Source of the DNA: Escherichia phage E20
Sequence record: OP745616
Length of the DNA: 64,000 bases
Direction: 5' to 3' (one strand)
This document shows positions 1-8,719 of this stretch, one piece after another. The position numbers and the translations under genes are program-made. The notes under the pieces are model-generated. The model did no database searches and was not told the DNA's origin. It saw only the letters and a program-made list of their open reading frames with translations. The stretch's first letter is position 1. Each line of letters starts with the position of its first letter.

Positions 1-18
1 CCACCTTACACGTTACAC

Positions 19-31
19 GTTGCTCCGCAAC
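19..31 (+). promoter_or_regulatory. Putative virion-RNAP (vRNAP) early hairpin promoter, copy 1: GTTGC-TCC-GCAAC followed by CTATGGACATG
   Basis: 5-bp stem/3-nt loop hairpin (loop TCC on + strand, GGA on template strand) with conserved downstream GGA(T/C); three copies precede early gene blocks; matches the known N4 vRNAP hairpin-promoter architecture. Confidence 0.6.
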
Positions 32-74
32 CTATGGACATGTCGTCCTATCATCAACTATTGGAGCTATCATC

Positions 75-398
75 ATGACTACTACCGCTACTGTACGTAT
101 GACCGCAGGAACTTTACTTGGTACTGTTAACTCTGCTGCTACTACTGTTGCAGATACATTTGGTACTGCTACTAAAGCAGTAGGTATGCTTAACTCATAT
201 GTATCTACTATGGCAGAGAAACAAGCCATTCGTACTAAATTAGAAATGCATACATTCGTAAACAAATTAGCTGAAGAAACAGCTATGAACGAGACTATGC
301 GTAAGAAAAGTATCGAAGAATTCTGCAAAGATTCAGAGAACGCTCGTATCTATAACGCAGAATATTCCAAAGTAATCGACATCCTGACTAAAGACTAA
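75..398 (+). CDS. Hypothetical early protein (107 aa)
   Basis: First ORF after hairpin promoter 1; followed by a rho-independent terminator. Confidence 0.5.
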   Translation: MTTTATVRMTAGTLLGTVNSAATTVADTFGTATKAVGMLNSYVSTMAEKQAIRTKLEMHTFVNKLAEETAMNETMRKKSIEEFCKDSENARIYNAEYSKVIDILTKD

Positions 399-405
399 AT
401 CAATA

Positions 406-431
406 GGAGACTCTTCGGAGTCTCCTTTTAT
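406..431 (+). terminator. Rho-independent terminator (GGAGACTC-TTCG-GAGTCTCC + TTTTA)
   Basis: Perfect 8-bp GC-rich stem, tetraloop, T-run. Confidence 0.7.
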
Positions 432-683
432 AAACATTAGATAGATAGTCTATTTTGCATAAAAAGTTAAAAGAGAATCCTACTATGAGCAAACTAGAAA
501 ACGCATTTATCCTGACTGTTTGTGTACTTGCAATTGTTACTTTGGTTTCCATTCACATTGGGAAACCTCTGGTAAATACTGACTATGGCAATGGTCAAAA
601 AGTAAAATCCATCTTGCTAATGGATAAGTAAAAACCGCTGTTCCACAGCTTACGGATACATTTCAACCAATTAGGAGACATCC

Positions 684-899
684 ATGCACACAGAAAATAT
701 CCGTATAATTGAGAATTGCTTTAGTAACAAACCAGTAGACCTCAGCAACGCAAGAAGGTCTACTGATAAAGAGTATGGAGAGTTTCTATCCTTACTCGAT
801 GAGTATCGTATGCAAGGGCATGTTGAATTACATGCCTATCTGCATAACTCAGGCTACTTCATGGATAAACTGGAATCTGAAACAGGCTGTCCATTCTAA
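684..899 (+). CDS. Hypothetical early protein (71 aa)
   Basis: ORF with AGGAGA ribosome-binding site a few nt upstream. Confidence 0.5.
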   Translation: MHTENIRIIENCFSNKPVDLSNARRSTDKEYGEFLSLLDEYRMQGHVELHAYLHNSGYFMDKLESETGCPF

Positions 900-950
900 G
901 TAAACAATTCCCTCTTAAGAGGGAATCAGCACAGAGTGCTTAAAACCAGG

Positions 951-963
951 GCTGCTCCGCAGC
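951..963 (+). promoter_or_regulatory. Putative vRNAP early hairpin promoter, copy 2: GCTGC-TCC-GCAGC followed by CTTTGGATG
   Basis: Same hairpin and flank as copies 1 and 3; lies upstream of ORF 1076..1459. Confidence 0.6.
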
Positions 964-1075
964 CTTTGGATGATTTATGCATCCACTAATCATTGAAATC
1001 TTAAGTCTTTTCTTGGGTTTAGTCACCGACGGACAAACCCATAAATCAAACAATCATTTATCTGGAGAGTACAAA

Positions 1076-1459
1076 ATGTCTATTCAAAAATTCACTTTCG
1101 GTCAATCTAACCCTGCTGCTACCACTGAAACTAAAACTGCTAAGCCTAAAGCTCAGTTCTGGTTGAACATTGGTTATATTGCTAATGAAGGCTCTGAAGA
1201 TGAGAAGTTCATCTCTCTGCCTACTGGTATTCCACTGGATACTCAGGAACCACTGCCTACTAATAGCAGCAATGCTGACTTCCGTGCTATGCGTTGTGCA
1301 CAGAACGACTTGCTGGAACAGTTAATCGAATATGCTCAGAACCTGGAACCAGGTGAAGAAGGTATCATTAACCTGCAAGTTCAACTACGTCGTGTGAAAG
1401 CAGAGGCTGCTGACATCCCAGCAGACGAGAATAAATATGCTCGTAAACTGACTTTCTAA
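1076..1459 (+). CDS. Hypothetical early protein (127 aa; ORF track gives 977 as longest start)
   Basis: In-frame ATG at 1076 preceded by GGAGAG RBS; downstream of hairpin promoter 2. Confidence 0.5.
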
Positions 1460-1468
1460 TCAACAACT

Positions 1469-1497
1469 GGACTCCCTTCGGGGAGTCTTTTATTTTT
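1469..1497 (+). terminator. Rho-independent terminator (GGACTCCC-TTCG-GGGAGTC + T-run)
   Basis: GC stem, TTCG loop, TTTTATTTTT. Confidence 0.7.
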
Positions 1498-1602
1498 AAC
1501 TAGACGATAAGCTATTTCTACTTTTTGAGTATCTTTAGACGAAGGGTACTGAAACAGTAACCAGATAGATATAGATTTATATTAGATGAAGGAGTAACCA
1601 CT

Positions 1603-1899
1603 ATGCGTACATTATGTAACCGTTATAACTCACAAAAGTTGATTGATACGTTGCAACCTTGGGGTAGTAAGATGTCACTGAATGCTCGCTGGCAGGTAAG
1701 TGTAAAAGATGAAAACGGTCACTGCTATGACCACTTCTTTGTAACTAAACCTACTCGTAAACAAATCCGTAAACTTCACAATGTGCAAAAACATTACCTA
1801 TCACAAAAATGCTATGAGTGTGGTAAGAGAATAGAACTAGGTAAAGAATTTACTTTTGATGATCTCAACTATGCTCACACTGACTGCCTGAAAGGATAA
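1603..1899 (+). CDS. Hypothetical early protein with Cys/His pairs (possible zinc-binding), 98 aa
   Basis: RBS GAAGGAG upstream; CYDH...CYECGK...HTDC pattern. Confidence 0.55.
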   Translation: MRTLCNRYNSQKLIDTLQPWGSKMSLNARWQVSVKDENGHCYDHFFVTKPTRKQIRKLHNVQKHYLSQKCYECGKRIELGKEFTFDDLNYAHTDCLKG

Positions 1900-1903
1900 G
1901 ACT

Positions 1904-2122
1904 ATGCTGGACTTCATTGCGTTTGTAATACTCTGCTCTGTACTGTATCGCCTGCGTGGTTACATCCTCAATGGAGCCAAGTGGGTAAGAACTAAGTTGG
2001 TACTTATCTGTAAGTTACCCGTTGTATTCGTTAAGTGTCTGTTTGCTTCCATAGTAGCTAAAGAAGTTCGTAAGCAACTCTGGGCTAAAGAAGCAGAAGA
2101 GTTTGCAAAGAGGAACCAGTGA
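1904..2122 (+). CDS. Hypothetical small protein (72 aa)
   Basis: ORF in tight early operon. Confidence 0.4.
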   Translation: MLDFIAFVILCSVLYRLRGYILNGAKWVRTKLVLICKLPVVFVKCLFASIVAKEVRKQLWAKEAEEFAKRNQ

Positions 2123-2415
2123 TATTCACTAACATTGAGGATGCCATTGAAGAATGTATCTTCCGTAGATATCACACTGGAGTACAGAAGCGACACTATG
2201 GTGTTGTACAGCTCAATGGTTATCAAATGGCTGTAAGAATTGTACGTAACAATAAACCTTTTAACTTTATGTGGAGTACTAAACATGCGTAAGTCATTAA
2301 TCATGGGAACCAAAGCTGACGTACAGAAGATGAAAGAGCGTCTGGCTGCTAAGCAACAGACATCTGAACCAGTACGTAAGATTGTTACCTTCAACCATCC
2401 GTGCATAAAATAGTA

Positions 2416-2453
2416 AGGAGTCCTCCAATAGGAGGCTCCTATTTTTTATTTTT
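2416..2453 (+). terminator. Rho-independent terminator
   Basis: AGGAGTCCTCC-AATA-GGAGGCTCCT stem-loop then ATTTTTTATTTTT. Confidence 0.7.
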
Positions 2454-2490
2454 GAATAGTTAGTTATGTATTTAAATAGGAGAAAGAGCC

Positions 2491-2805
2491 TTGAATGAAA
2501 TAGTATGTATACTTCCTCACTTAGCTAAAGTAGCTGACAGGAATATACGGGTACATTTACCCTTCCCATTAAGTAATCCATTCACTCGTAATGAAAGAAC
2601 CACAGTAGAAGATATAGAGGTAGCTTATGAGGCTTATCTTCGTAATCGTCTTATTAGTGGTGACAAATTAATTACAGCAGAGATGGAAAGGATTGCATCC
2701 TTTGTCACAGATAGTACTAAGAAACCTGTTGGTTTAATTGGTACTGAATCTGATGTTAACGTTATTCGTAAAATATTAATGGAGGCTTTAGGTGAACAAC
2801 CTTAG
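2491..2805 (+). CDS. Hypothetical protein (104 aa)
   Basis: ORF; start codon uncertain. Confidence 0.4.
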   Translation: MNEIVCILPHLAKVADRNIRVHLPFPLSNPFTRNERTTVEDIEVAYEAYLRNRLISGDKLITAEMERIASFVTDSTKKPVGLIGTESDVNVIRKILMEALGEQP

Positions 2806-3025
2806 TGATGTAATAGTAGGTAATGAAATATTCGTTAACCGAAAAGGTTATGCACGAATTAAGCTAAAGAGTACTAACAGAACTATTGTTCGTAAGGTGT
2901 ACTCTAAACCTTTTAGTAATTTCTCTATTGATGAGGTGCGTATTAATAACAAAATGTACCTCATAGATAGTAAAGTATCTGTATGCCATACAGACGGTAA
3001 AACCTCACTTGAATATGCTTATTAA
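2792..3025 (+). CDS. Hypothetical protein (77 aa)
   Basis: ORF overlapping previous stop. Confidence 0.4.
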   Translation: MNNLSDVIVGNEIFVNRKGYARIKLKSTNRTIVRKVYSKPFSNFSIDEVRINNKMYLIDSKVSVCHTDGKTSLEYAY

Positions 3026-3037
3026 GGAATAAACAAA

Positions 3038-3259
3038 ATGTTGTTCAGCACTAATTATGGTATTTGCCCGATTTGCAATAAAGGAAGAGGAGTTGCTAAT
3101 CATAAGAAGTGTAGTCGTATCCTACAGAAACAACGGAACCAGGAAGAATGGGATAAGTTGTTAAATAATCAGCATAAAGAAGAGAACCAACAGATGGCTG
3201 TTAAGGCATCTACTCAACGTATTCGCCGTATTAACTATATACAGGGGTATCAGAAATGA
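3038..3259 (+). CDS. Hypothetical small protein with CxxC zinc-ribbon-like motif (73 aa)
   Basis: CPICNKG...HKKC pattern. Confidence 0.45.
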   Translation: MLFSTNYGICPICNKGRGVANHKKCSRILQKQRNQEEWDKLLNNQHKEENQQMAVKASTQRIRRINYIQGYQK

Positions 3260-3612
3260 AACTAATTGTAGCTGGGGGACGTGACTTCACTGACACCAAT
3301 CGTATGATTGCTGAATTACAGAAGCTAGTAGAATCAGGTGAAATAACTGATTCACCTGAACTTGTATGTGGTATGGCTCGAGGAGCAGATATGCTTGCAT
3401 ATAGTCTCTGGGCTAATAACCGTATGCCTATCCACAACTTCCCAGCAAACTGGAATAAGCATGGAAAGTCTGCTGGTTATAAACGTAATCAGGAAATGGG
3501 TGAATTTGCAGATGCTGCTGTATGTTTCTGGGATGGTAATTCCAAAGGAACCAAGCACATGATTGATATCATGAATAGGCTTAATAAACCTGTATACATT
3601 GTGAGGTACTGA
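3256..3612 (+). CDS. SLOG/DUF2493-like Rossmann-fold protein (118 aa)
   Basis: MKLIVAGGRDF ... GMARGADMLAYSWA ... CFWDG pattern typical of the DprA/LOG-like phage family. Confidence 0.5.
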   Translation: MKLIVAGGRDFTDTNRMIAELQKLVESGEITDSPELVCGMARGADMLAYSLWANNRMPIHNFPANWNKHGKSAGYKRNQEMGEFADAAVCFWDGNSKGTKHMIDIMNRLNKPVYIVRY

Positions 3613-3870
3613 GTGATTATTACATTCCCTGTAACTAAATCATTTAACTATATGGGACAAACTATTGAAGTCCCATTATGGGTTAAATATGTAGCATTAT
3701 TACCTCGTCCTCAGAAAAGCAAGAATGCCTCACTAATTGGATTTAGTAGAAAGCCTAAGCTAACCGAAAACTGTATTTGGAAGTCTAGTGGTAGACAAGA
3801 GGAAATTGGTTTTTGTGACTATGTGCTTCAACCAAATACAGTATATCTAACTCTGGAGAAAGTAGAGTGA
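3613..3870 (+). CDS. Hypothetical protein (85 aa)
   Basis: ORF, GTG or ATG start. Confidence 0.4.
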   Translation: MIITFPVTKSFNYMGQTIEVPLWVKYVALLPRPQKSKNASLIGFSRKPKLTENCIWKSSGRQEEIGFCDYVLQPNTVYLTLEKVE

Positions 3871-4187
3871 ATAACATTGTAGTAGTACATGATAATACAT
3901 TTACTGATGTCGATAAGATGATGCGTAATATTGATTACGTATCTCAGACTAGTAAAGCATTCAATGAAGAGTTCACTATTTACTGTGAACCAGAGTCACC
4001 ACTGGTTCCTGTATTAAAGGAAGCAGGTCTACCGTTCTCTACAGAGAACTTCCCAGAAGAACCAGAGTACATGATTACATTCATATATGACTTACATGAT
4101 GGCTCACATGCCAGTGAACTAGCCATGAACCAATGGCGTAGTAAACGTCCTGTATTCGCATTTCAGGTACTTAAACCAAAGGATTAA
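3867..4187 (+). CDS. Hypothetical protein (106 aa)
   Basis: ORF with overlapping stop/start. Confidence 0.45.
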   Translation: MNNIVVVHDNTFTDVDKMMRNIDYVSQTSKAFNEEFTIYCEPESPLVPVLKEAGLPFSTENFPEEPEYMITFIYDLHDGSHASELAMNQWRSKRPVFAFQVLKPKD

Positions 4188-4191
4188 TCAA

Positions 4192-4551
4192 ATGAAAGAG
4201 ATATTCGTATTCACTACTAACACATTAGGTCAGCATACCAATGCTGCTGCCAAGTTAGCCTATAAGAAGCATGGTGCTCGTTGGGGTATGGCCTATGGTC
4301 ATTATGGTAATAGCTTTGCCATTCCAGTAAGAGATGGCAATGGTAACCGTATCAAAGAGGGTGCTATTTATGGCTTCATTGAAGGTTTTATTGCCTATGC
4401 GTCTACTAATCCGCAGTGGGATTTCAAAGTCATGAGTAATGACTATCTGGACCCATACCAATTCATTAATGTAACTGGCAATGTACTGTTACCGGAAGCA
4501 TGGCGTAAACACTTAGGTGATGCTTACAACTACTGGGGAACATTCTCATGA
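4192..4551 (+). CDS. Hypothetical protein (119 aa)
   Basis: ORF. Confidence 0.45.
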   Translation: MKEIFVFTTNTLGQHTNAAAKLAYKKHGARWGMAYGHYGNSFAIPVRDGNGNRIKEGAIYGFIEGFIAYASTNPQWDFKVMSNDYLDPYQFINVTGNVLLPEAWRKHLGDAYNYWGTFS

Positions 4552-4808
4552 CATATGAAGAACTATGGGCTGCTCAGGTCAGAGCCAGAGCACTCACACG
4601 GCATGACATCTATTGTGCATTGCAGAACGAATTAAAAGGTCGTACTAAGCTAGGTCACATATCAGGTTTAGTTAAAATACCTATGCGTAGTCTAGTATGG
4701 CCTTATCAGAAAAAAAGTAATGAATTTAACGGTAATGGTTTATATGTACGTATTAACTACCTTGGTCAAGAGAACAGTATTCGTATTGCCTTTTGGACTA
4801 AGCGGTAG
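4548..4808 (+). CDS. Hypothetical protein (86 aa)
   Basis: ORF. Confidence 0.45.
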   Translation: MTYEELWAAQVRARALTRHDIYCALQNELKGRTKLGHISGLVKIPMRSLVWPYQKKSNEFNGNGLYVRINYLGQENSIRIAFWTKR

Positions 4809-4814
4809 GCAATA

Positions 4815-4827
4815 GCTGCTCCGCAGC
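4815..4827 (+). promoter_or_regulatory. Putative vRNAP early hairpin promoter, copy 3: GCTGC-TCC-GCAGC followed by TTGAGGATG
   Basis: Identical 13-nt hairpin to copy 2; upstream of ORF 4842 and the RNAPII genes. Confidence 0.6.
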
Positions 4828-4841
4828 TTGAGGATGTAATC

Positions 4842-5072
4842 ATGGCAGTATCCATTCAGGAAATCATTGTTAAAAGGCACAAGAGAAAATGGGAAAGCTA
4901 TTACAAGCTAAAAGAGGTAATTAATGCTGCTTACCTTAGTGAAGAAGGTTATGCCTGGGTTGAACTAAATAGTGTATGGCCTTGGAGACATAACATCTAT
5001 ACAGACAGTTTAATCATATTCTACAGCTATGCGAATGAGCATAGTGGTAGGCGTCTAATTGCAAGAATGTAA
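4842..5072 (+). CDS. Hypothetical protein (76 aa)
   Basis: First ORF after hairpin promoter 3. Confidence 0.45.
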   Translation: MAVSIQEIIVKRHKRKWESYYKLKEVINAAYLSEEGYAWVELNSVWPWRHNIYTDSLIIFYSYANEHSGRRLIARM

Positions 5073-5094
5073 TTAACTAATTGGAGAATATGCG

Positions 5095-5913
5095 ATGTAC
5101 TCATCAATAGAACATCAGAAGCAGCTTGAAGTCCTATTCAATAAAAATCAATTACTGCCTCGCATGAGGAAGGAATTCGAGGACTCCAAAGAAATTGACT
5201 TTAAGGCATTCGCTGCCTATTTAGAAATTGATTATAAGCTGCTCATTGATGCAATGGTGCAGATTGCCCTACATAAACGTGCTGACATCCAGACTATGAT
5301 TGGCTCTCTCATGAGTCACTCAGATGATGCTCAGTACATCGCTGACTGTCTATATAAGATGGCAGAGAATGACTGCTTCAACTATGACCCTACCATCGAC
5401 AAATTCGGTGTTATCTATGAGATTAGTGAAGATGTTCAGATGGAACTGGAAGCATTCCAGTATCCATTACCTATCGTAAGTGCTCCTAAGCCTGTTCTGT
5501 GTAACCGTGATACAGGTTACTACGAAAGCAGAGGCAGCATCATCCTCAAGAAGAATCATCATGAAATGGACGTCTGCCTTGACCACATCAACCGTATGAA
5601 CAATCAACGTCTCTGTATTAACTGGGACGTTGCCAACTATGTAAAAGACTCTCGTCCTAACATGGATAAACCCAAAGAGGGGGAAACCCGTCAGGACTAT
5701 GAGAAACGTGTTAAAGCCTTTGAGAAGTACAGTCGTACTGCTAAGGAAGTAATGGAGTTAGTAACTCAAGAAGGCAATAACTTCTCACTAGCACATAAGT
5801 ACGATAAGAGGGGCAGAACCTATGCCTGTGGATACCATATCAATTTTCAAGGGACTTCATATAACAAGGCAGTGATTGAATTTGCTGATAAGGAGCTGGT
5901 AAACGATGATTAA
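5095..5913 (+). CDS. RNAPII N-terminal (small) subunit of a split T7-like RNA polymerase (N4 gp15-like), 272 aa
   Basis: Size and position immediately upstream of the catalytic subunit; N4 RNAPII is a heterodimer of roughly 270 and 400 aa. Confidence 0.65.
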   Translation: MYSSIEHQKQLEVLFNKNQLLPRMRKEFEDSKEIDFKAFAAYLEIDYKLLIDAMVQIALHKRADIQTMIGSLMSHSDDAQYIADCLYKMAENDCFNYDPTIDKFGVIYEISEDVQMELEAFQYPLPIVSAPKPVLCNRDTGYYESRGSIILKKNHHEMDVCLDHINRMNNQRLCINWDVANYVKDSRPNMDKPKEGETRQDYEKRVKAFEKYSRTAKEVMELVTQEGNNFSLAHKYDKRGRTYACGYHINFQGTSYNKAVIEFADKELVNDD

Positions 5914-6054
5914 TAAACGTGCAGTAGAAGACTTCTATGCTCATAGAGAGTTGGTACTGAAACGCATCAATGAAGCAATGAAACGTGAGGCTGAAGCTAA
6001 AGCTAAGCATAACCGTAAATAAATCCAAATGCGAGCCAAGAGGACTAATCTCAA

Positions 6055-6297
6055 ATGAGTAAGCTATTAAAACTGTGGTTAATTAGCCAAAGTGAAAACC
6101 GTGGGCATGACTCCTTTGATTCTGCTGTTGTAGCAGCCTACACAGAGGAAGAAGCTAAACAAATTAATCCAGACGGAGAATGGAAACTATACACCGCCTG
6201 GTGTTCTTCACCAGATAAAGTACATGTTGAGTACCTGGGTATTGCCACCGAAGGCGTGGAACCAGGAATAGTATTGTCATCATTTAATGCTGGTTAA
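6055..6297 (+). CDS. Hypothetical protein (80 aa)
   Basis: ORF between the two RNAPII genes. Confidence 0.45.
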   Translation: MSKLLKLWLISQSENRGHDSFDSAVVAAYTEEEAKQINPDGEWKLYTAWCSSPDKVHVEYLGIATEGVEPGIVLSSFNAG

Positions 6298-6351
6298 TCA
6301 TCCAATAAGCAGGCTCTCCATAGTGGGGAGCCAAGAAGCGAGGAATATACA

Positions 6352-7569
6352 ATGCAACTGTTAACTGCCCGTGAATACCTGAAAGTAGATGTCGCTAACA
6401 ACTATGGCTTAGATAAAAAGACATGGGATGAACGTATTAGCTGGTTCGATGAGAACGAAGCTAATCTGCTCAATCTGGTAGATGAAGCTGAAGAATCTGC
6501 ACTGTTCTATGCTGGTGTAAACGCATGGAAAGATATGAAAGCTGGTAAGCCTATTGGTTATGCCGTAGCTCTGGATGCTACATCATCTGGCTTACAGTTA
6601 CTGGCTTGCCTGACTGGTGACCGTTCTGCTGCTGAACTGTGTAACGTAGTTAACTACATGGGCAAGAATGGTAAGCCATTACGTCGTGATGCTTATACAG
6701 TTATCTATCATAAGATGCTGGACATCCTTGGTGAAGCATCTCGTATTAAACGTAGTGACACCAAGCAGGCAGTTATGACTGCATTCTATGGTTCAGAAGC
6801 TAAACCTAAAGAAGTATTCGGTGAAGGTATCCGTCTCAAGACTTTTGAGAATGTAATGGAAACTGTTGCTAGTGGACCTTGGGCATTGAACAAGTTCTTA
6901 CTGCAATGTGGTAACCCAGACGCTAACCGTTATGTATGGGTATTGCCTGACAACTTCCATGCTGTCATTAAAGTTATGGTTCCTGAAGTACAGACTGTTA
7001 ACTTCTTAGGTAAGCCATTCGACATCACTCGTATGGTCCAAGGTACTGAAGAGAAGACCCGTATGCTCTCTGCTAACATCACCCACTCTATTGATGGGAT
7101 GGTAGTACGTGAGATGCTGCGTCGTTGTAACTTCAACATGAACCAGGTGAACTATATTAAGTCCCTCTGTGAGGGAACCAGTGAATACATGGTTGGCTCT
7201 GATGATAACTATGAAATGGTTAACACACTGTGGTCTAACTATGAGAAGTCGGGATTCCTGTCTACCCGTATCTTTGATTATCTGGACTCTGAAACAATTG
7301 CATTGGTTGATACAGATGTAATCATGGCTATGCTCAATACCATGCCTAAGAAACCATTCCCTGTAATGACCGTACACGACTGCTTCCGTTGTCATCCTAA
7401 CTACGGTAATGACCTGCGTCGTCAGTACAATCAGATTCTGTCTGACATTGCTAAGAGTGACCTACTGGGCTTCATCCTGTCTCAGGTACTGGGACAAGAG
7501 TTCTCTGCTGGTAAGCTGGATGACAGCCTTTGGCAGGACATCCTTGAAACAGATTATGCATTAAGTTAA
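6352..7569 (+). CDS. RNAPII catalytic subunit, T7-like single-subunit RNAP palm/fingers (N4 gp16-like), 405 aa
   Basis: T7 RNAP motif A-like DATSSGLQ, motif B-like RSDTKQAVMTAFYGS, motif C-like TVHDCF. Confidence 0.85.
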   Translation: MQLLTAREYLKVDVANNYGLDKKTWDERISWFDENEANLLNLVDEAEESALFYAGVNAWKDMKAGKPIGYAVALDATSSGLQLLACLTGDRSAAELCNVVNYMGKNGKPLRRDAYTVIYHKMLDILGEASRIKRSDTKQAVMTAFYGSEAKPKEVFGEGIRLKTFENVMETVASGPWALNKFLLQCGNPDANRYVWVLPDNFHAVIKVMVPEVQTVNFLGKPFDITRMVQGTEEKTRMLSANITHSIDGMVVREMLRRCNFNMNQVNYIKSLCEGTSEYMVGSDDNYEMVNTLWSNYEKSGFLSTRIFDYLDSETIALVDTDVIMAMLNTMPKKPFPVMTVHDCFRCHPNYGNDLRRQYNQILSDIAKSDLLGFILSQVLGQEFSAGKLDDSLWQDILETDYALS

Positions 7570-7575
7570 TAAACT

Positions 7576-7611
7576 GGCCTCATACCTTCGGGTATGGGGC
7601 TTTTATTTTTT
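7576..7611 (+). terminator. Rho-independent terminator
   Basis: GCCTCATACC-TTCG-GGTATGGGGC then TTTTATTTTTT. Confidence 0.7.
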
Positions 7612-7613
7612 GC

Positions 7614-7811
7614 TTGGAGGTAGTCAACATGCCAGACATCTATGATGTTATTACTAAAACCGTACTGATAGTTTTATCTGCTATTGTGATACTCACTATA
7701 GTTAACGCCCACAAATCCAAGTTTGCTTATTGCTACTATGGAGCATACTCTGCCGGATGTTTTGTATTAGCCGGTTGGATAGCTTACTGGATTTACCACA
7801 TCAACAACTAG
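7614..7811 (+). CDS. Small membrane protein (65 aa)
   Basis: Hydrophobic segments; bracketed by two terminators. Confidence 0.45.
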   Translation: MEVVNMPDIYDVITKTVLIVLSAIVILTIVNAHKSKFAYCYYGAYSAGCFVLAGWIAYWIYHINN

Positions 7812-7840
7812 CCACCCTCAAGGGTGGCTTTCTTTTTTAT
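7811..7840 (+). terminator. Rho-independent terminator
   Basis: GCCACCCT-CAA-GGGTGGC then TTTCTTTTTT. Confidence 0.7.
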
Positions 7841-7885
7841 CAGCCTTCATAATGATTAGGCATATTTACTCAAGAGGATACATAC

Positions 7886-8719
7886 ATGCCAACCCTAAAG
7901 ATTGCGTTTAATAAAACTACCAACGTTGCTACCGTGCTTGATTCAGGTGGCAGTGTTCCAGGTGGTTCCGTGGAAGTAGGTACTTTTGAACATCCAGATG
8001 CCACTTACCCTGATAGCTTAGTTATCTATCACGGTGTTCGTGACCTGTTGTATAAACGTTCTGCTAAAAACCCTGCTGAAGAAGGCTTCTGGCCTGACAA
8101 CATCGTGGATATGCAATCGGTCACTATCGACATGCAAGCTACTCCACGACTGACTGTTGCTACCAAACTGCCTCGTGTAGTCTCTGCCATCGAAGGAGTA
8201 GATGTTAACTGGCATATTGATGTAGCAGGTGGTAAAGCACCATTTACTTATAAGTGGCAATTCAAAGCTGATACTGCTGGTGCAGTATTCACTGATATTG
8301 ATTCTGGTGATAACGCATCTGCTATCACTGCAACATTGACCCTTAGTAACGTAACAGCTGCTTCTGCCGGTACTTATAAAGTGATTGTTACTGATGCTAA
8401 TGGAACCACGGTAGAAGATACCTCGTTGCTGGCTGTAGGTTACTACGAAGCAAGTTCACTGGTAGCTACTCCTACTTCACTGGCTCTGTCTGTTGCTGAA
8501 GATCTCGCCGCTGGCAAGACTGTAACCATTGCTGCTATGCCTGTTGGTTCATCTGCTGGTACTTTGTCTATCAAGACTGCTCCAGATTCTGCCCGTGCTA
8601 CAGCTACCATTGCTGGTAACGTACTGACAGTTAAACCTGTGGCTGCTGGTGATGCTACTTCTGTTGTAGTTACCAACGGTACTGTCGATGTAACCATCGC
8701 TGTTACTGTTGCAGAGTAA
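7886..8719 (+). CDS. Ig-like (BIG2-type) domain protein, putative capsid decoration protein (N4 gp17-like), 277 aa
   Basis: Two Ig-like stretches (TYKWQF...SAGTYKVIVTDANGTT; TVKPVAAGDATSVVVTNGTVDVTI); syntenic with N4 gp17, directly after RNAPII. Confidence 0.55.
   Translation: MPTLKIAFNKTTNVATVLDSGGSVPGGSVEVGTFEHPDATYPDSLVIYHGVRDLLYKRSAKNPAEEGFWPDNIVDMQSVTIDMQATPRLTVATKLPRVVSAIEGVDVNWHIDVAGGKAPFTYKWQFKADTAGAVFTDIDSGDNASAITATLTLSNVTAASAGTYKVIVTDANGTTVEDTSLLAVGYYEASSLVATPTSLALSVAEDLAAGKTVTIAAMPVGSSAGTLSIKTAPDSARATATIAGNVLTVKPVAAGDATSVVVTNGTVDVTIAVTVAE

What the first reader, a model, noticed from the sequence alone, without database searches (positions are those of the whole stretch)
3256..3612. 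SLOG/DUF2493-like protein in the early region
The GGRDF ... GMARGADMLAYSWA pattern resembles the SLOG (DprA/LOG-like) nucleotide-binding superfamily. Members of that superfamily are associated with nucleotide signalling and phage-host conflict systems, so its placement among early takeover genes is notable.
Basis: partly seen in the sequence, partly recalled or inferred. Interest (0 to 1): 0.45.

Follow-up and report, generated by a model that had tools for sequence, protein, structure and literature searches.

The report
Phage early-gene SLOG (DUF2493/YAcAr) protein
The flagged gene really does encode a small nucleotide-binding protein of the SLOG/DUF2493 family, a common phage accessory protein already annotated as such in sister phages, whose exact job (probably countering a host NAD/ADP-ribose-based defence) has never been tested.

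Summary
The window is Escherichia phage vB_Eco_F22, an N4-like Gamaleyavirus. ORF 3256..3612 (+, 118 aa, F22_0012, "hypothetical protein") exists exactly as described.

It matches Pfam PF10686 (YAcAr, formerly DUF2493) at E=4.9e-12, 45.9 bits against a 28.2-bit cut-off. It also matches PHROG 289 at 2e-32. The AlphaFold model (pLDDT 98) is a minimal five-stranded SLOG fold. Its nearest solved structures are ShosA/DprA, YpsA, the ThsA SLOG domain and LOG enzymes.

The identification is not new. Sister phages and one paper already label the ortholog DUF2493, SLOG or "DprA", and 803 of 50,697 phage records encode a relative. Function is untested.

Of the 37 relatives with a sizeable extra domain, 23 carry DUF4326, NADAR or a macro-type domain. 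F22 itself has a degenerate DUF4326 gene and a degenerate macro-fold gene within 1 kb of the SLOG gene. A family member in phage ΦDruSM1 (ORF83) is needed for full plating on AVAST type III.

My best guess (confidence about 0.4) is an early counter-defence protein. It would bind, and perhaps cleave, an ADP-ribose-type nucleotide, either free or attached to ssDNA. The main rival is a DprA-like ssDNA binder. Interest is low to moderate.

The parts
3256..3612 (+). Gene for a stand-alone YAcAr/DUF2493-family SLOG domain protein (118 aa; F22_0012)
3243..3247 (+). Shine-Dalgarno-like AGGGG 8 nt before the ATG; the ATG overlaps the upstream stop (ATGA), suggesting translational coupling
   Evidence: Read directly from the sequence.
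3274..3282 (+). G7-G8-R9 loop after strand 1. It is the equivalent of the DprA 'G-S/T/A-R' ssDNA/base-pocket motif
   Evidence: G7 99%, G/S8 97%, R9 97% conserved in 150 representatives. R9 aligns to the R of 'VGSR' in S. pneumoniae DprA 3uqz. Motif definition from PMC3950713.
3370..3390 (+). G39-M-A-R-G43-A-D45 loop and helix start after strand 2 (G-x-A-x-G-A-D motif)
   Evidence: G39, G43 and D45 are 99% conserved and A41 95%. Aligns to 'SGLAKGID' of DprA 3uqz.
3451..3498 (+). W66 ... G70-K-S-A73-G74-Y-K-R77-N78-Q-E-M81: invariant Trp and the R-N motif on helix C
   Evidence: W66 and R77 are invariant; N78, A73, G74 and M81 are 99% conserved. R-N corresponds to HpDprA R143-N144 and to LOG 'R-K' by motif position (for DprA; LOG and own knowledge). 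This correspondence is an inference, not a superposition.
3526..3561 (+). F91-W92-D93-G94-N-S96-K-G98-T99-K-H101-M102: end of strand 4 and start of helix D. It sits at the position of the LOG 'PGGxGTxxE' motif
   Evidence: W92 97%, D93 89%, G94 93%, S96 99%, G98 99%, T99 91%, H101 75% (N 13%), M102 93%. There is no Glu at T+3.
2491..2805 (+). Possible partner gene (inferred): degenerate DUF4326-like protein (F22_0009, 104 aa). It keeps SNPF but lacks the GRG and C-x-C-x-P-x-x-C-H-x-D motifs
   Evidence: Pfam DUF4326 at E=0.033, below threshold. PHROG 464 at 6e-16. Alignment to intact DUF4326 domains. Local HMM at 1.1e-3.
4192..4551 (+). Possible partner gene (inferred): macro-fold protein of the A1S_2505 family (F22_0015, 119 aa). 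An 8-residue deletion removes the family's 'TRIGCGLAG' motif, and the G-S-N...H-G-A-G-A-A motif is altered

Best explanation
F22_0012 is a stand-alone SLOG domain of the YAcAr (DUF2493) family. It is a 118-residue, five-stranded Rossmann-like fold.

Its strictly conserved residues (G7-G8-R9, G39/G43/D45, W66, R77-N78, W92-D93-G94, S96, G98-T99, H101) lie at the C-terminal ends of the strands. In DprA, LOG and ThsA relatives this is where one nucleotide is held. These points are shown.

It is made from the early, left-end transcription unit together with the phage RNA polymerase II subunits. This is inferred from synteny and the absence of terminators.

I propose that it is a counter-defence factor belonging to the phage toolkit that handles NAD+/ADP-ribose-derived molecules. 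It would bind an ADP-ribose-type nucleotide in that pocket. The ligand could be a diffusible immune signal or an ADP-ribose adduct on single-stranded phage DNA. The protein would then either sequester it or hydrolyse its ribose-base N-glycosidic bond, using R77 with H101, D45 or D93. That would blunt a host defence before phage replication starts. Ligand identity, catalysis and the defence targeted are all inferred, not shown.
For: Family and fold:
- Pfam PF10686 above threshold.
- AF2 pLDDT 98.1.
- SLOG-superfamily structures fill the top of both fold searches.

Pocket conservation: W66 and R77 are invariant and 19 further positions are >=90% conserved across 150 representatives of 36-59% identity. 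All of them lie in strand-end loops or helix starts.

Domain fusions: 37 of the 150 representatives have >=70 extra residues, and 23 of those 37 carry one of these domains:
- DUF4326: 10-11.
- NADAR: 4.
- Macro: 6-7.
- Macro-like A1S_2505: 2.
A T4 gp30.3-type domain (1) and DUF488 (3-4) also occur among the 150, from Pfam. Phage NADARs, including T4 30.3/AdfN, are proven DNA ADP-ribosylglycohydrolases that counter DarTG1 (PMC11825919).

Neighbours:
- In F22 a DUF4326-like gene and a macro-fold gene flank the SLOG gene within about 1 kb.
- Sister phage 24-32N has the SLOG gene plus an intact DUF4326 and the macro-like gene.
- 16 of 80 diverse IMG/VR loci have DUF4326, Macro or A1S_2505 within 6 kb. 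No RecA, SSB or annealase cluster is among the commonest neighbours.

Literature:
- Iyer et al. 2022 predicted that viral YpsA-clade SLOG domains, with Macro, NADAR and DUF4326, process low-molecular-weight ADPr derivatives (PMC9503650).
- Deletion of ΦDruSM1 ORF83 lowers plating on AVAST type III (bioRxiv 10.1101/2024.04.14.589459).
- CAjan gp82 carries exactly the ORF83 residues R89, N90, T112 and D114 and is PF10686 at 2e-18.
- ORF83 homologs fused to DUF4326 occur in amoeba giant viruses, where a RecA-loading role is unlikely.
Against: No ligand, activity or phenotype has been measured for this protein or any close ortholog.

The two conserved arginines, R9 and R77, match the DprA/ShosA ssDNA-binding arginines.

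The LOG catalytic Glu of PGGxGTxxE is absent. F22 has GTKHM.

In F22 both putative partners have lost their family motifs, so the 'module' may not operate here.

The neighbour frequency of 16/80 has no matched control.

The ORF83 phenotype was shared with a DNA ligase deletion. It could therefore reflect DNA repair rather than signal destruction.

Some relatives sit next to replication genes: DNA pol III alpha, a toprim protein, and an SF1B helicase fusion in ICP1 HelB.
Confidence: 0.4

Rival explanations
1. A minimal DprA-like ssDNA-binding protein. It would grip exposed single-stranded phage DNA by inserting a base into the G-G-R / R-N pocket. It would then protect the DNA, recruit RecA or a phage recombinase, or target partner enzymes such as macro, NADAR or DUF4326 to ssDNA.
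For: - 39 of 150 relatives also hit Pfam DNA_processg_A.
- R9 aligns with the GSR arginine of SpDprA.
- The DprA signature motifs G-S/T/A-R and F/L/Y-x-x-R-N/D are nearly reproduced as G-[GS]-R and [YF]-x-R-N.
- The equivalent arginines are essential for ssDNA binding in HpDprA and ShosA.
- Some relatives lie next to, or are fused with, replication proteins.
- The ORF83 phenotype was shared with a DNA ligase.
- Family median pI is 8.6.
Against: - The F22 protein itself does not hit PF02481 at E<=1.
- It is 118 aa, against the roughly 205-residue DprA domain, and lacks the SAM and winged-helix domains.
- The aromatic residue sits at R-2, not R-3.
- Extra near-invariant polar and aromatic residues (W66, W92-D93, S96, T99, H101) have no established DprA role.
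- Fusion partners are overwhelmingly ADPr or phosphate-processing hydrolases, not recombination proteins.
- Homologs occur in amoeba giant viruses.
- A tenth of family domains have pI <5.8.
Confidence: 0.25
2. A LOG-like nucleotide phosphoribohydrolase used for metabolic takeover. It would cleave AMP or another (deoxy)nucleoside monophosphate into base plus ribose-5-phosphate, to reshape host nucleotide pools.
For: - The EVADES preprint predicts AMP binding and phosphoribohydrolase activity for family member ORF83, using R89, N90, T112 and D114.
- dUTPase is a recurrent neighbour, in 8 of 80 loci.
Against: - The PGGxGTxxE motif and its Glu are absent from the F22 type, which has DGNSKGTKHM.
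- There is no Pfam Lysine_decarbox hit.
- The fusion partners point to ADPr rather than to bulk nucleotide metabolism.
- The AMP prediction is computational only.
Confidence: 0.1
3. A YpsA-like host-manipulation protein. The SLOG domain would bind a host protein or nucleotide and block a host process such as cell division during takeover.
Against: There is no Pfam DUF1273/YpsA match. The family is spread over phages of Gram-negative, Gram-positive and archaeal hosts and over giant viruses, which argues against one host protein target. No toxicity data exist.
Confidence: 0.07
4. A GTP-binding protein, as the PHROG 289 label and several GenBank records state.
For: Only the label itself: PHROG 289 'GTP-binding domain' and record annotations.
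Against: The sequence has no Walker A (GxxxxGK[ST]) or NKxD motif (read by eye). The fold is SLOG, not a P-loop GTPase, and no GTPase is among the top structural matches.
Confidence: 0.02

Closest known systems
YAcAr / DUF2493 (Pfam PF10686) proteins of phages and mobile elements, e.g. Klebsiella phage KP8 ORF14 and the Shigella phage Moonfish 'YspA cpYpsA-related SLOG family protein'
   Same: Same Pfam family. Orthologs are 69-100% identical across Gamaleyavirus and relatives, with the same size, the same position upstream of the RNAP II genes, and the same motifs.
   Different: Nothing material. In F22 the record simply says 'hypothetical protein'.
ΦDruSM1 ORF83 / CAjan gp82 (Queuovirinae), reported as an anti-AVAST type III gene
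   Same: Same Pfam family (2e-18). Shares the G-G-R, G-x-x-x-G-x-D and R-N motifs. 36% identity over residues 1-67.
   Different: A different subfamily. It has a 130-aa protein with a 20-residue insert and an LOG-like 'FPGGAGTMDM' motif in place of F22's 'FWDGNSKGTKHM'. It comes from a siphovirus and is not in an N4-type early region. The phenotype has not been tested for the F22 type.
DprA / Smf and the DprA-like antitoxin ShosA (PDB 8zva, 3maj, 4ljk, 3uqz)
   Different: About half the size of the DprA domain. No SAM or C-terminal domains. The F22 protein does not reach PF02481. It has extra conserved W66, W92-D93 and H101. Dimerisation, RecA binding and ssDNA binding are untested.
ThsA SLOG domain (type I Thoeris sensor of 3'cADPR; PDB 7uxs)
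   Different: ThsA's SLOG is fused to a SIR2 effector and belongs to the host. The F22 protein stands alone and is phage-encoded. Ligand-contact residues were not compared.
LOG / 'lysine decarboxylase-like' phosphoribohydrolases (PF03641; PDB 5wq3, 1wek, 1rcu)
   Different: No PGGxGTxxE motif and no catalytic Glu. There is a His two residues after the Thr instead. No Pfam match.
Viral SLOG-Macro-NADAR-DUF4326 'ADPr-processing' network predicted by Iyer, Burroughs, Anantharaman and Aravind 2022
   Same: F22 carries the SLOG gene with DUF4326-like and macro-fold genes in one early block. The same domains are fused to this SLOG type in other viruses.
   Different: In F22 the DUF4326-like and macro-like genes have lost their family motifs. 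No NADAR was found in the window. The network itself remains a prediction for the SLOG component.

Membership tests
YAcAr / DUF2493 (Pfam PF10686) | Profile match above the curated gathering score | tested here: met
   45.9 bits against 28.2, E=4.9e-12, residues 1-69 covering model positions 1-66 of 66. 148 of 150 relatives also match.
SLOG superfamily | Three-layer alpha/beta Rossmannoid fold with a five-stranded parallel sheet, most similar to SMF/DprA, LOG, YpsA and ThsA-SLOG structures | tested here: met
   [not shown]
SLOG superfamily | Conserved glycine-rich loop after strand 1 and polar residues at strand ends forming a nucleotide pocket | tested here: met
   G7-G8-R9, G39/G43/D45, R77-N78 and S96/G98/T99 are >=90% conserved and lie at strand ends or helix starts.
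SLOG superfamily | Actual nucleotide binding | not testable with these tools
   Needs biochemistry or co-folding; no docking tool was available.
DprA / Smf (Pfam PF02481) | Profile match to the ~205-residue DprA domain | tested here: not met
   No PF02481 hit for the F22 protein at E<=1, although 39 of 150 relatives hit it weakly (best 4.9e-7). The protein is 118 aa. The best PDB sequence hit to DprA is only E=0.0037 with a family profile.
DprA / Smf (Pfam PF02481) | Signature motifs G-S/T/A-R and F/L/Y-x-x-R-N/D (Wang et al. 2014) | tested here: inconclusive
   F22 has G-G-R (the family is 43% G-S-R) and Y-K-R-N, with the aromatic at R-2 rather than R-3.
DprA / Smf (Pfam PF02481) | ssDNA binding, homodimerisation and RecA interaction | not testable with these tools
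   No multimer or nucleic-acid modelling and no experiment. The residues known from ShosA, HpDprA and SpDprA could not be superposed because model coordinates are not exposed.
LOG phosphoribohydrolase (Pfam PF03641) | PGGxGTxxE motif with catalytic Glu, plus a profile match | tested here: not met
   The sequence at that position is W-D-G-N-S-K-G-T-K-H-M, with no Glu. There is no PF03641 hit.
YpsA (DUF1273) | Profile match to the YpsA family | tested here: not met
   [not shown]
ThsA-type SLOG sensor | SLOG domain fused to, or operonic with, an effector (SIR2) and a TIR signal generator | tested here: not met
   Stand-alone 118-aa protein. No PADLOC hit. The neighbours are phage early genes.
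P-loop GTP-binding protein (label of PHROG 289) | Walker A GxxxxGK[ST] and NKxD motifs; GTPase fold | tested here: not met
   The motifs are absent from the 118-aa sequence. The fold is SLOG.
Known anti-defence protein (anti-AVAST type III ORF83 type) | Loss of the gene lowers plating on a defined defence system | not tested
   Shown only for ΦDruSM1 ORF83. The F22 protein shares the Pfam family but only about 36% identity over its N-terminal half with the CAjan ortholog of ORF83.

The most novel reading that the evidence does not exclude
The stand-alone YAcAr SLOG domain may be an enzyme of a kind not yet demonstrated: a ribosyl N-glycosidase. It would strip ADP-ribose from modified DNA bases, countering DarT-type defences, or destroy ADPr-derived immune signals. 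It would use the DprA-like base pocket plus H101, D93 and D45. On this reading, F22 keeps only the SLOG enzyme intact while its macro and DUF4326 partners have decayed, so the SLOG alone would suffice for counter-defence.
Probability: 0.15. Interest if true: 0.65.

Novelty: already known. Interest (0 to 1): 0.25.

Why it matters
The identification itself adds only an annotation to one phage record. The family matters more than this one gene.

- It is encoded in about 1.6% of sequenced phage records (803 of 50,697).
- It also occurs on rhizobial conjugative plasmids and in amoeba giant viruses.
- It is repeatedly fused to enzymes now known to erase DNA ADP-ribosylation.
- No member has a measured activity.

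A tractable E. coli phage that carries the SLOG gene on its own, in an early operon and beside decayed partner genes, is a convenient system. It could show whether these proteins are ssDNA binders, signal sponges or a new class of ADP-ribose-directed hydrolase, and which host defence they answer.

Tried and rejected
Searches that found nothing:
- NCBIfam and PADLOC scans of the SLOG protein gave no hits.
- Sequence searches of the PDB with the protein and with two family profiles found no solved relative. The hits to LasR, ribosomal protein S3 and ORF2 are chance matches at E>0.03. Only DprA 3uqz reached 0.0037.
- No NADAR was found within 6 kb in 80 viral loci or in the window. This used a small home-made HMM with limited sensitivity.
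- N4's first 10 kb has no SLOG gene. The rest of the N4 genome was not checked.

Tool and library failures:
- The first literature search with 'YAcAr' returned papers on Caiman yacare.
A trimmed 30-sequence alignment worked.
- Burroughs et al. 2015 (the SLOG classification) and Burroughs & Aravind 2023 (rhodanese-phosphatase/DUF4326) are not in the held library. What I say about them rests on memory and on PMC9503650.

Ideas rejected or left open:
- The 'GTP-binding domain' label was rejected on motif and fold grounds.
- Membership in DprA, LOG and YpsA was rejected at the profile level.
- pI did not discriminate between a DNA binder and an enzyme; the family median is 8.6 with a wide spread.
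- I could not superpose the model on DprA-ssDNA, LOG-AMP or ThsA-3'cADPR because model coordinates are not exposed.

Full report
WHAT IS THERE. The window is Escherichia phage vB_Eco_F22 (OP870143.1), a Gamaleyavirus in the Schitoviridae, i.e. an N4-like, G7C-type phage. Window coordinate = record coordinate - 292. The flagged interval 3256..3612 is exactly one + strand ORF of 118 aa, CDS F22_0012, annotated 'hypothetical protein'. Its ATG overlaps the stop of the upstream gene (ATGA). AGGGG lies 8 nt upstream, and the next gene starts at the GTG that follows its stop codon. So it sits in a tightly coupled gene string. The quoted motifs are present: GGRDF at residues 7-11 and GMARGADMLAYSLWA at 39-53.

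IS IT A SLOG/DUF2493 PROTEIN? Yes.
- Pfam PF10686 (YAcAr, 'YspA, cpYpsA-related SLOG family', formerly DUF2493) is matched at E=4.9e-12, 45.9 bits against a 28.2-bit gathering score. It is the only Pfam hit at E<=1.
- PHROG 289 is matched at 2e-32.
- The family is very large. There are 3,836 clusters at E<=1e-3 in the 90% database, and the best 120 are Gamaleyavirus-type orthologs of 69-100% identity. There are 15,960 representatives in the 50% library.
- By tblastn, 803 of 50,697 phage records encode a relative. Hosts range from Escherichia, Klebsiella and Vibrio to Bacillus, Mycobacterium, Campylobacter and haloarchaea.
- 150 plasmids, mostly rhizobial conjugative ones, also encode one.

Foldseek agrees, ranking 8zva, 4ljk and 7uxs first. 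No solved structure is a sequence-level relative.

ANATOMY. Across 150 representatives of 36-59% identity, W66 and R77 are invariant. Nineteen further positions are >=90% conserved: A6, G7, R9, G39, A41, G43, D45, A64, G70, A73, G74, N78, M81, W92, G94, S96, G98, T99 and M102. D93 is 89% conserved. H101 is 75% His and 13% Asn.

These residues form four motifs: A-G-[GS]-R, G-x-A-[RK]-G-A-D, F-P-A-x-W...G-K-x-A-G-Y-x-R-N-x-x-M, and F-W-D-G-x-S-x-G-T-x-H-M. Each sits at the C-terminal end of a strand or the start of the following helix. This is the ligand pocket of Rossmann-like domains.

Two of the motifs echo the published DprA signature. In DprA, G-S/T/A-R and F/L/Y-x-x-R-N/D hold one base of ssDNA in a small pocket, with HpDprA R52, R143 and N144 making contacts (PMC3950713). 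The same arginines are essential in ShosA (PMC12961424). R9 aligns with the GSR arginine of S. pneumoniae DprA.

The fourth motif occupies the place of the LOG motif PGGxGTxxE. It lacks the Glu and has His two residues after the Thr instead.

The Pfam model covers only residues 1-69. The R-N and G-T motifs are therefore family features seen here, not features required by Pfam.

CONTEXT IN THE WINDOW. All genes from about 1600 to 7570 are on the + strand. Strong intrinsic terminators lie at 1469-1488 and 7576-7601 with none between them. Sigma-70-like sites are fewer than expected, 11 against 23.6 +/- 4.3. The block ends with the two N4-type RNA polymerase II subunit genes, 5095..5913 and 6352..7569. 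It is syntenic with N4 gp1-gp16. In N4 these genes are transcribed early by the injected virion RNA polymerase; that is established knowledge, not tested here. 'Early' is therefore a reasonable inference.

Two neighbours turned out to be relevant.
- ORF 2491..2805 is a DUF4326 relative: Pfam E=0.033, PHROG 464 at 6e-16. It keeps SNPF but has lost the GRG and C-x-C-x-P-x-x-C-H-x-D motifs.

The comparison with two relatives is as follows:
- N4: degenerate DUF4326 (gp9), intact DUF4326 (gp12), intact macro-like gene (gp14), and no SLOG in its first 10 kb.
- Sister phage 24-32N: degenerate DUF4326, SLOG, intact DUF4326 and the macro-like gene.
- F22: degenerate DUF4326, SLOG and the deleted macro-like gene. 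My local HMMs found no intact DUF4326, Macro or NADAR anywhere in the 64 kb window.

So in this genome the SLOG gene is the only one of the three with its family motifs complete.

CONTEXT ELSEWHERE. Of the 150 representatives, 37 carry >=70 extra residues. Of those 37, 23 are fused to one of these domains (Pfam counts; by eye and local HMMs):
- DUF4326: 10-11
- NADAR: 4
- Macro: 6-7
- the A1S_2505 macro-like domain: 2

A T4 gp30.3-type domain (1) and DUF488 (3-4) also occur among the 150. None is fused to a recombinase or SSB.

In 80 diverse IMG/VR loci with 6 kb flanks, the commonest neighbours were:
- the N4-type RNAP II small subunit, in 18 loci. In eight of them it starts 0.4-0.8 kb downstream of the SLOG start, so the early-region position is conserved across divergent Schitoviridae.
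- terminase genes
- two metallophosphoesterase clusters, 8 and 7 loci
- dUTPase, 8 loci
- DUF4326, 8 loci
- Macro, 10 loci
- A1S_2505, 3 loci

DUF4326, Macro or A1S_2505 occurred within 6 kb in 16 of the 80 loci. I had no matched control for this figure.

Some relatives sit in DNA-replication settings. One follows a DNA pol III alpha gene on a Geobacillus plasmid. One is the C-terminal domain of a 307-aa protein beside a toprim gene on Bradyrhizobium plasmids. One is the C-terminus of the ICP1 accessory helicase HelB.

WHAT IS KNOWN.
- Annotation. [quoted passage not shown] GenBank records of sister phages call it 'DNA processing protein DprA', 'GTP-binding domain' or 'YspA cpYpsA-related SLOG family protein'.
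- Prediction. Iyer et al. 2022 surveyed viral NAD+/ADPr systems. They predicted that viral SLOG domains of the YpsA-like clade, often combined with Macro, NADAR and DUF4326, act on low-molecular-weight ADPr derivatives. They noted explicitly that this is experimentally uncharacterised (PMC9503650).
- Partner enzymes. [quoted passage not shown]
- Experimental evidence on this family. The only such evidence I found is a deletion screen in ΦDruSM1, where loss of ORF83 ('Smf/DprA') reduced plating on AVAST type III. Loss of a DNA ligase and of two other genes did the same. The EVADES preprint predicts that ORF83 binds AMP through R89, N90, T112 and D114, and finds DUF4326-fused homologs in amoeba giant viruses. 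I could not obtain the ORF83 sequence. However, gp82 of the related Queuovirinae phage CAjan has exactly R89, N90, T112 and D114. It is PF10686 at 2e-18 and is 36% identical to the F22 protein over residues 1-67. So ORF83 belongs to the same Pfam family but to a different subfamily, with an LOG-like 'FPGGAGTMDM' motif.

HOW IT MOST LIKELY WORKS.
- Shown: a real, conserved gene; a SLOG fold; a strongly conserved nucleotide-type pocket; recurrent fusion and adjacency to ADP-ribose-erasing and phosphate-processing domains.
- Inferred: early expression; a nucleotide ligand.
- Speculative: which ligand, whether it is cleaved or only bound, and which host system is countered.

I commit, at about 0.4, to a counter-defence role within the ADPr/NAD-derivative toolkit. 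The pocket would take an ADP-ribose-type nucleotide, either free or attached to a base of ssDNA, and the protein would either sequester it or hydrolyse the ribose-base bond.

The strongest rival, at about 0.25, is a minimal DprA-like ssDNA binder. It is favoured by the top structural matches and the two arginine motifs. It is disfavoured by the protein's size, the missing PF02481 match, the extra conserved residues, the fusion partners and the giant-virus homologs. The two readings converge if the substrate is ADP-ribosylated ssDNA.

Lesser rivals are an LOG-like nucleotide phosphoribohydrolase (0.1), a YpsA-like host-manipulating protein (0.07), and a GTP-binding protein. The last exists as a label only and is contradicted by fold and motifs.

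VERDICT. The observation and the family assignment are confirmed. The assignment is already in the literature and in sister-phage records, so novelty is nil at the level of identity. The open question is function, which these tools cannot settle. The modest points of interest are these:
- The family has no measured activity despite its abundance.
- F22 carries the SLOG intact beside two decayed partner genes.
- A distant family member has an anti-AVAST phenotype.

Interest 0.25.

Noticed in passing
[not shown]
   Followed up: yes
window 2491-2805 (+); also N4 gp9 (L007:2805-3119) and L002:2298-2618: A degenerate DUF4326 paralog lacks the Cys-rich C-x-C-x-P-x-x-C-H-x-D motif and GRG. It is conserved across N4, 24-32N and F22. 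In IMG/VR loci L008 and L009 it lies directly upstream of the SLOG gene. In 24-32N the ORF is not annotated.
   Followed up: partly
window 977-1459 (+): F22_0004 is annotated 'RNA polymerase subunit A'. It is the 160-aa homolog of N4 gp2 (YP_950480), not a polymerase-sized protein, so the label looks inherited rather than tested. A strong terminator-like hairpin follows it at 1469-1488.
   Followed up: no
window 1-8000: Sigma-70-like promoter matches are depleted (11 against 23.6 +/- 4.3 in shuffles). Terminator-like hairpins are enriched (16 against 4.0 +/- 2.0). This fits a region transcribed by phage polymerases from hairpin promoters rather than by host RNAP.
   Followed up: no
IMG/VR loci L008-L087 (e.g. 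L053:6789-7709): In 18 of 80 diverse viral loci an N4-type RNAP II small-subunit gene lies within 6 kb of the SLOG gene. In eight of them it starts 0.4-0.8 kb downstream of the SLOG start. The SLOG-before-RNAPII arrangement is therefore conserved well beyond Gamaleyavirus. Metallophosphoesterase genes (two clusters, 8 and 7 loci) are also frequent neighbours.
   Followed up: partly
proteins P0130 (587 aa) and P0191 (271 aa): Some relatives carry two tandem YAcAr SLOG domains. P0130 adds a DUF4326 domain and a long N-terminal region of unknown nature.
   Followed up: no
L006:5425-6348 (Bradyrhizobium plasmid p4_1) and many rhizobial plasmids: On rhizobial conjugative plasmids the YAcAr domain is the C-terminal third of a ~307-aa protein. 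It sits next to a toprim-domain gene and DUF736, a setting typical of conjugative-element establishment genes.
   Followed up: no
window 3867-4187 (+) and 3613-3870 (+): The two genes between the SLOG and macro-like genes belong to PHROGs 7827 and 1972, both of unknown function. The first is called 'antirepressor protein' in several sister-phage records, with no support from Pfam.
   Followed up: no
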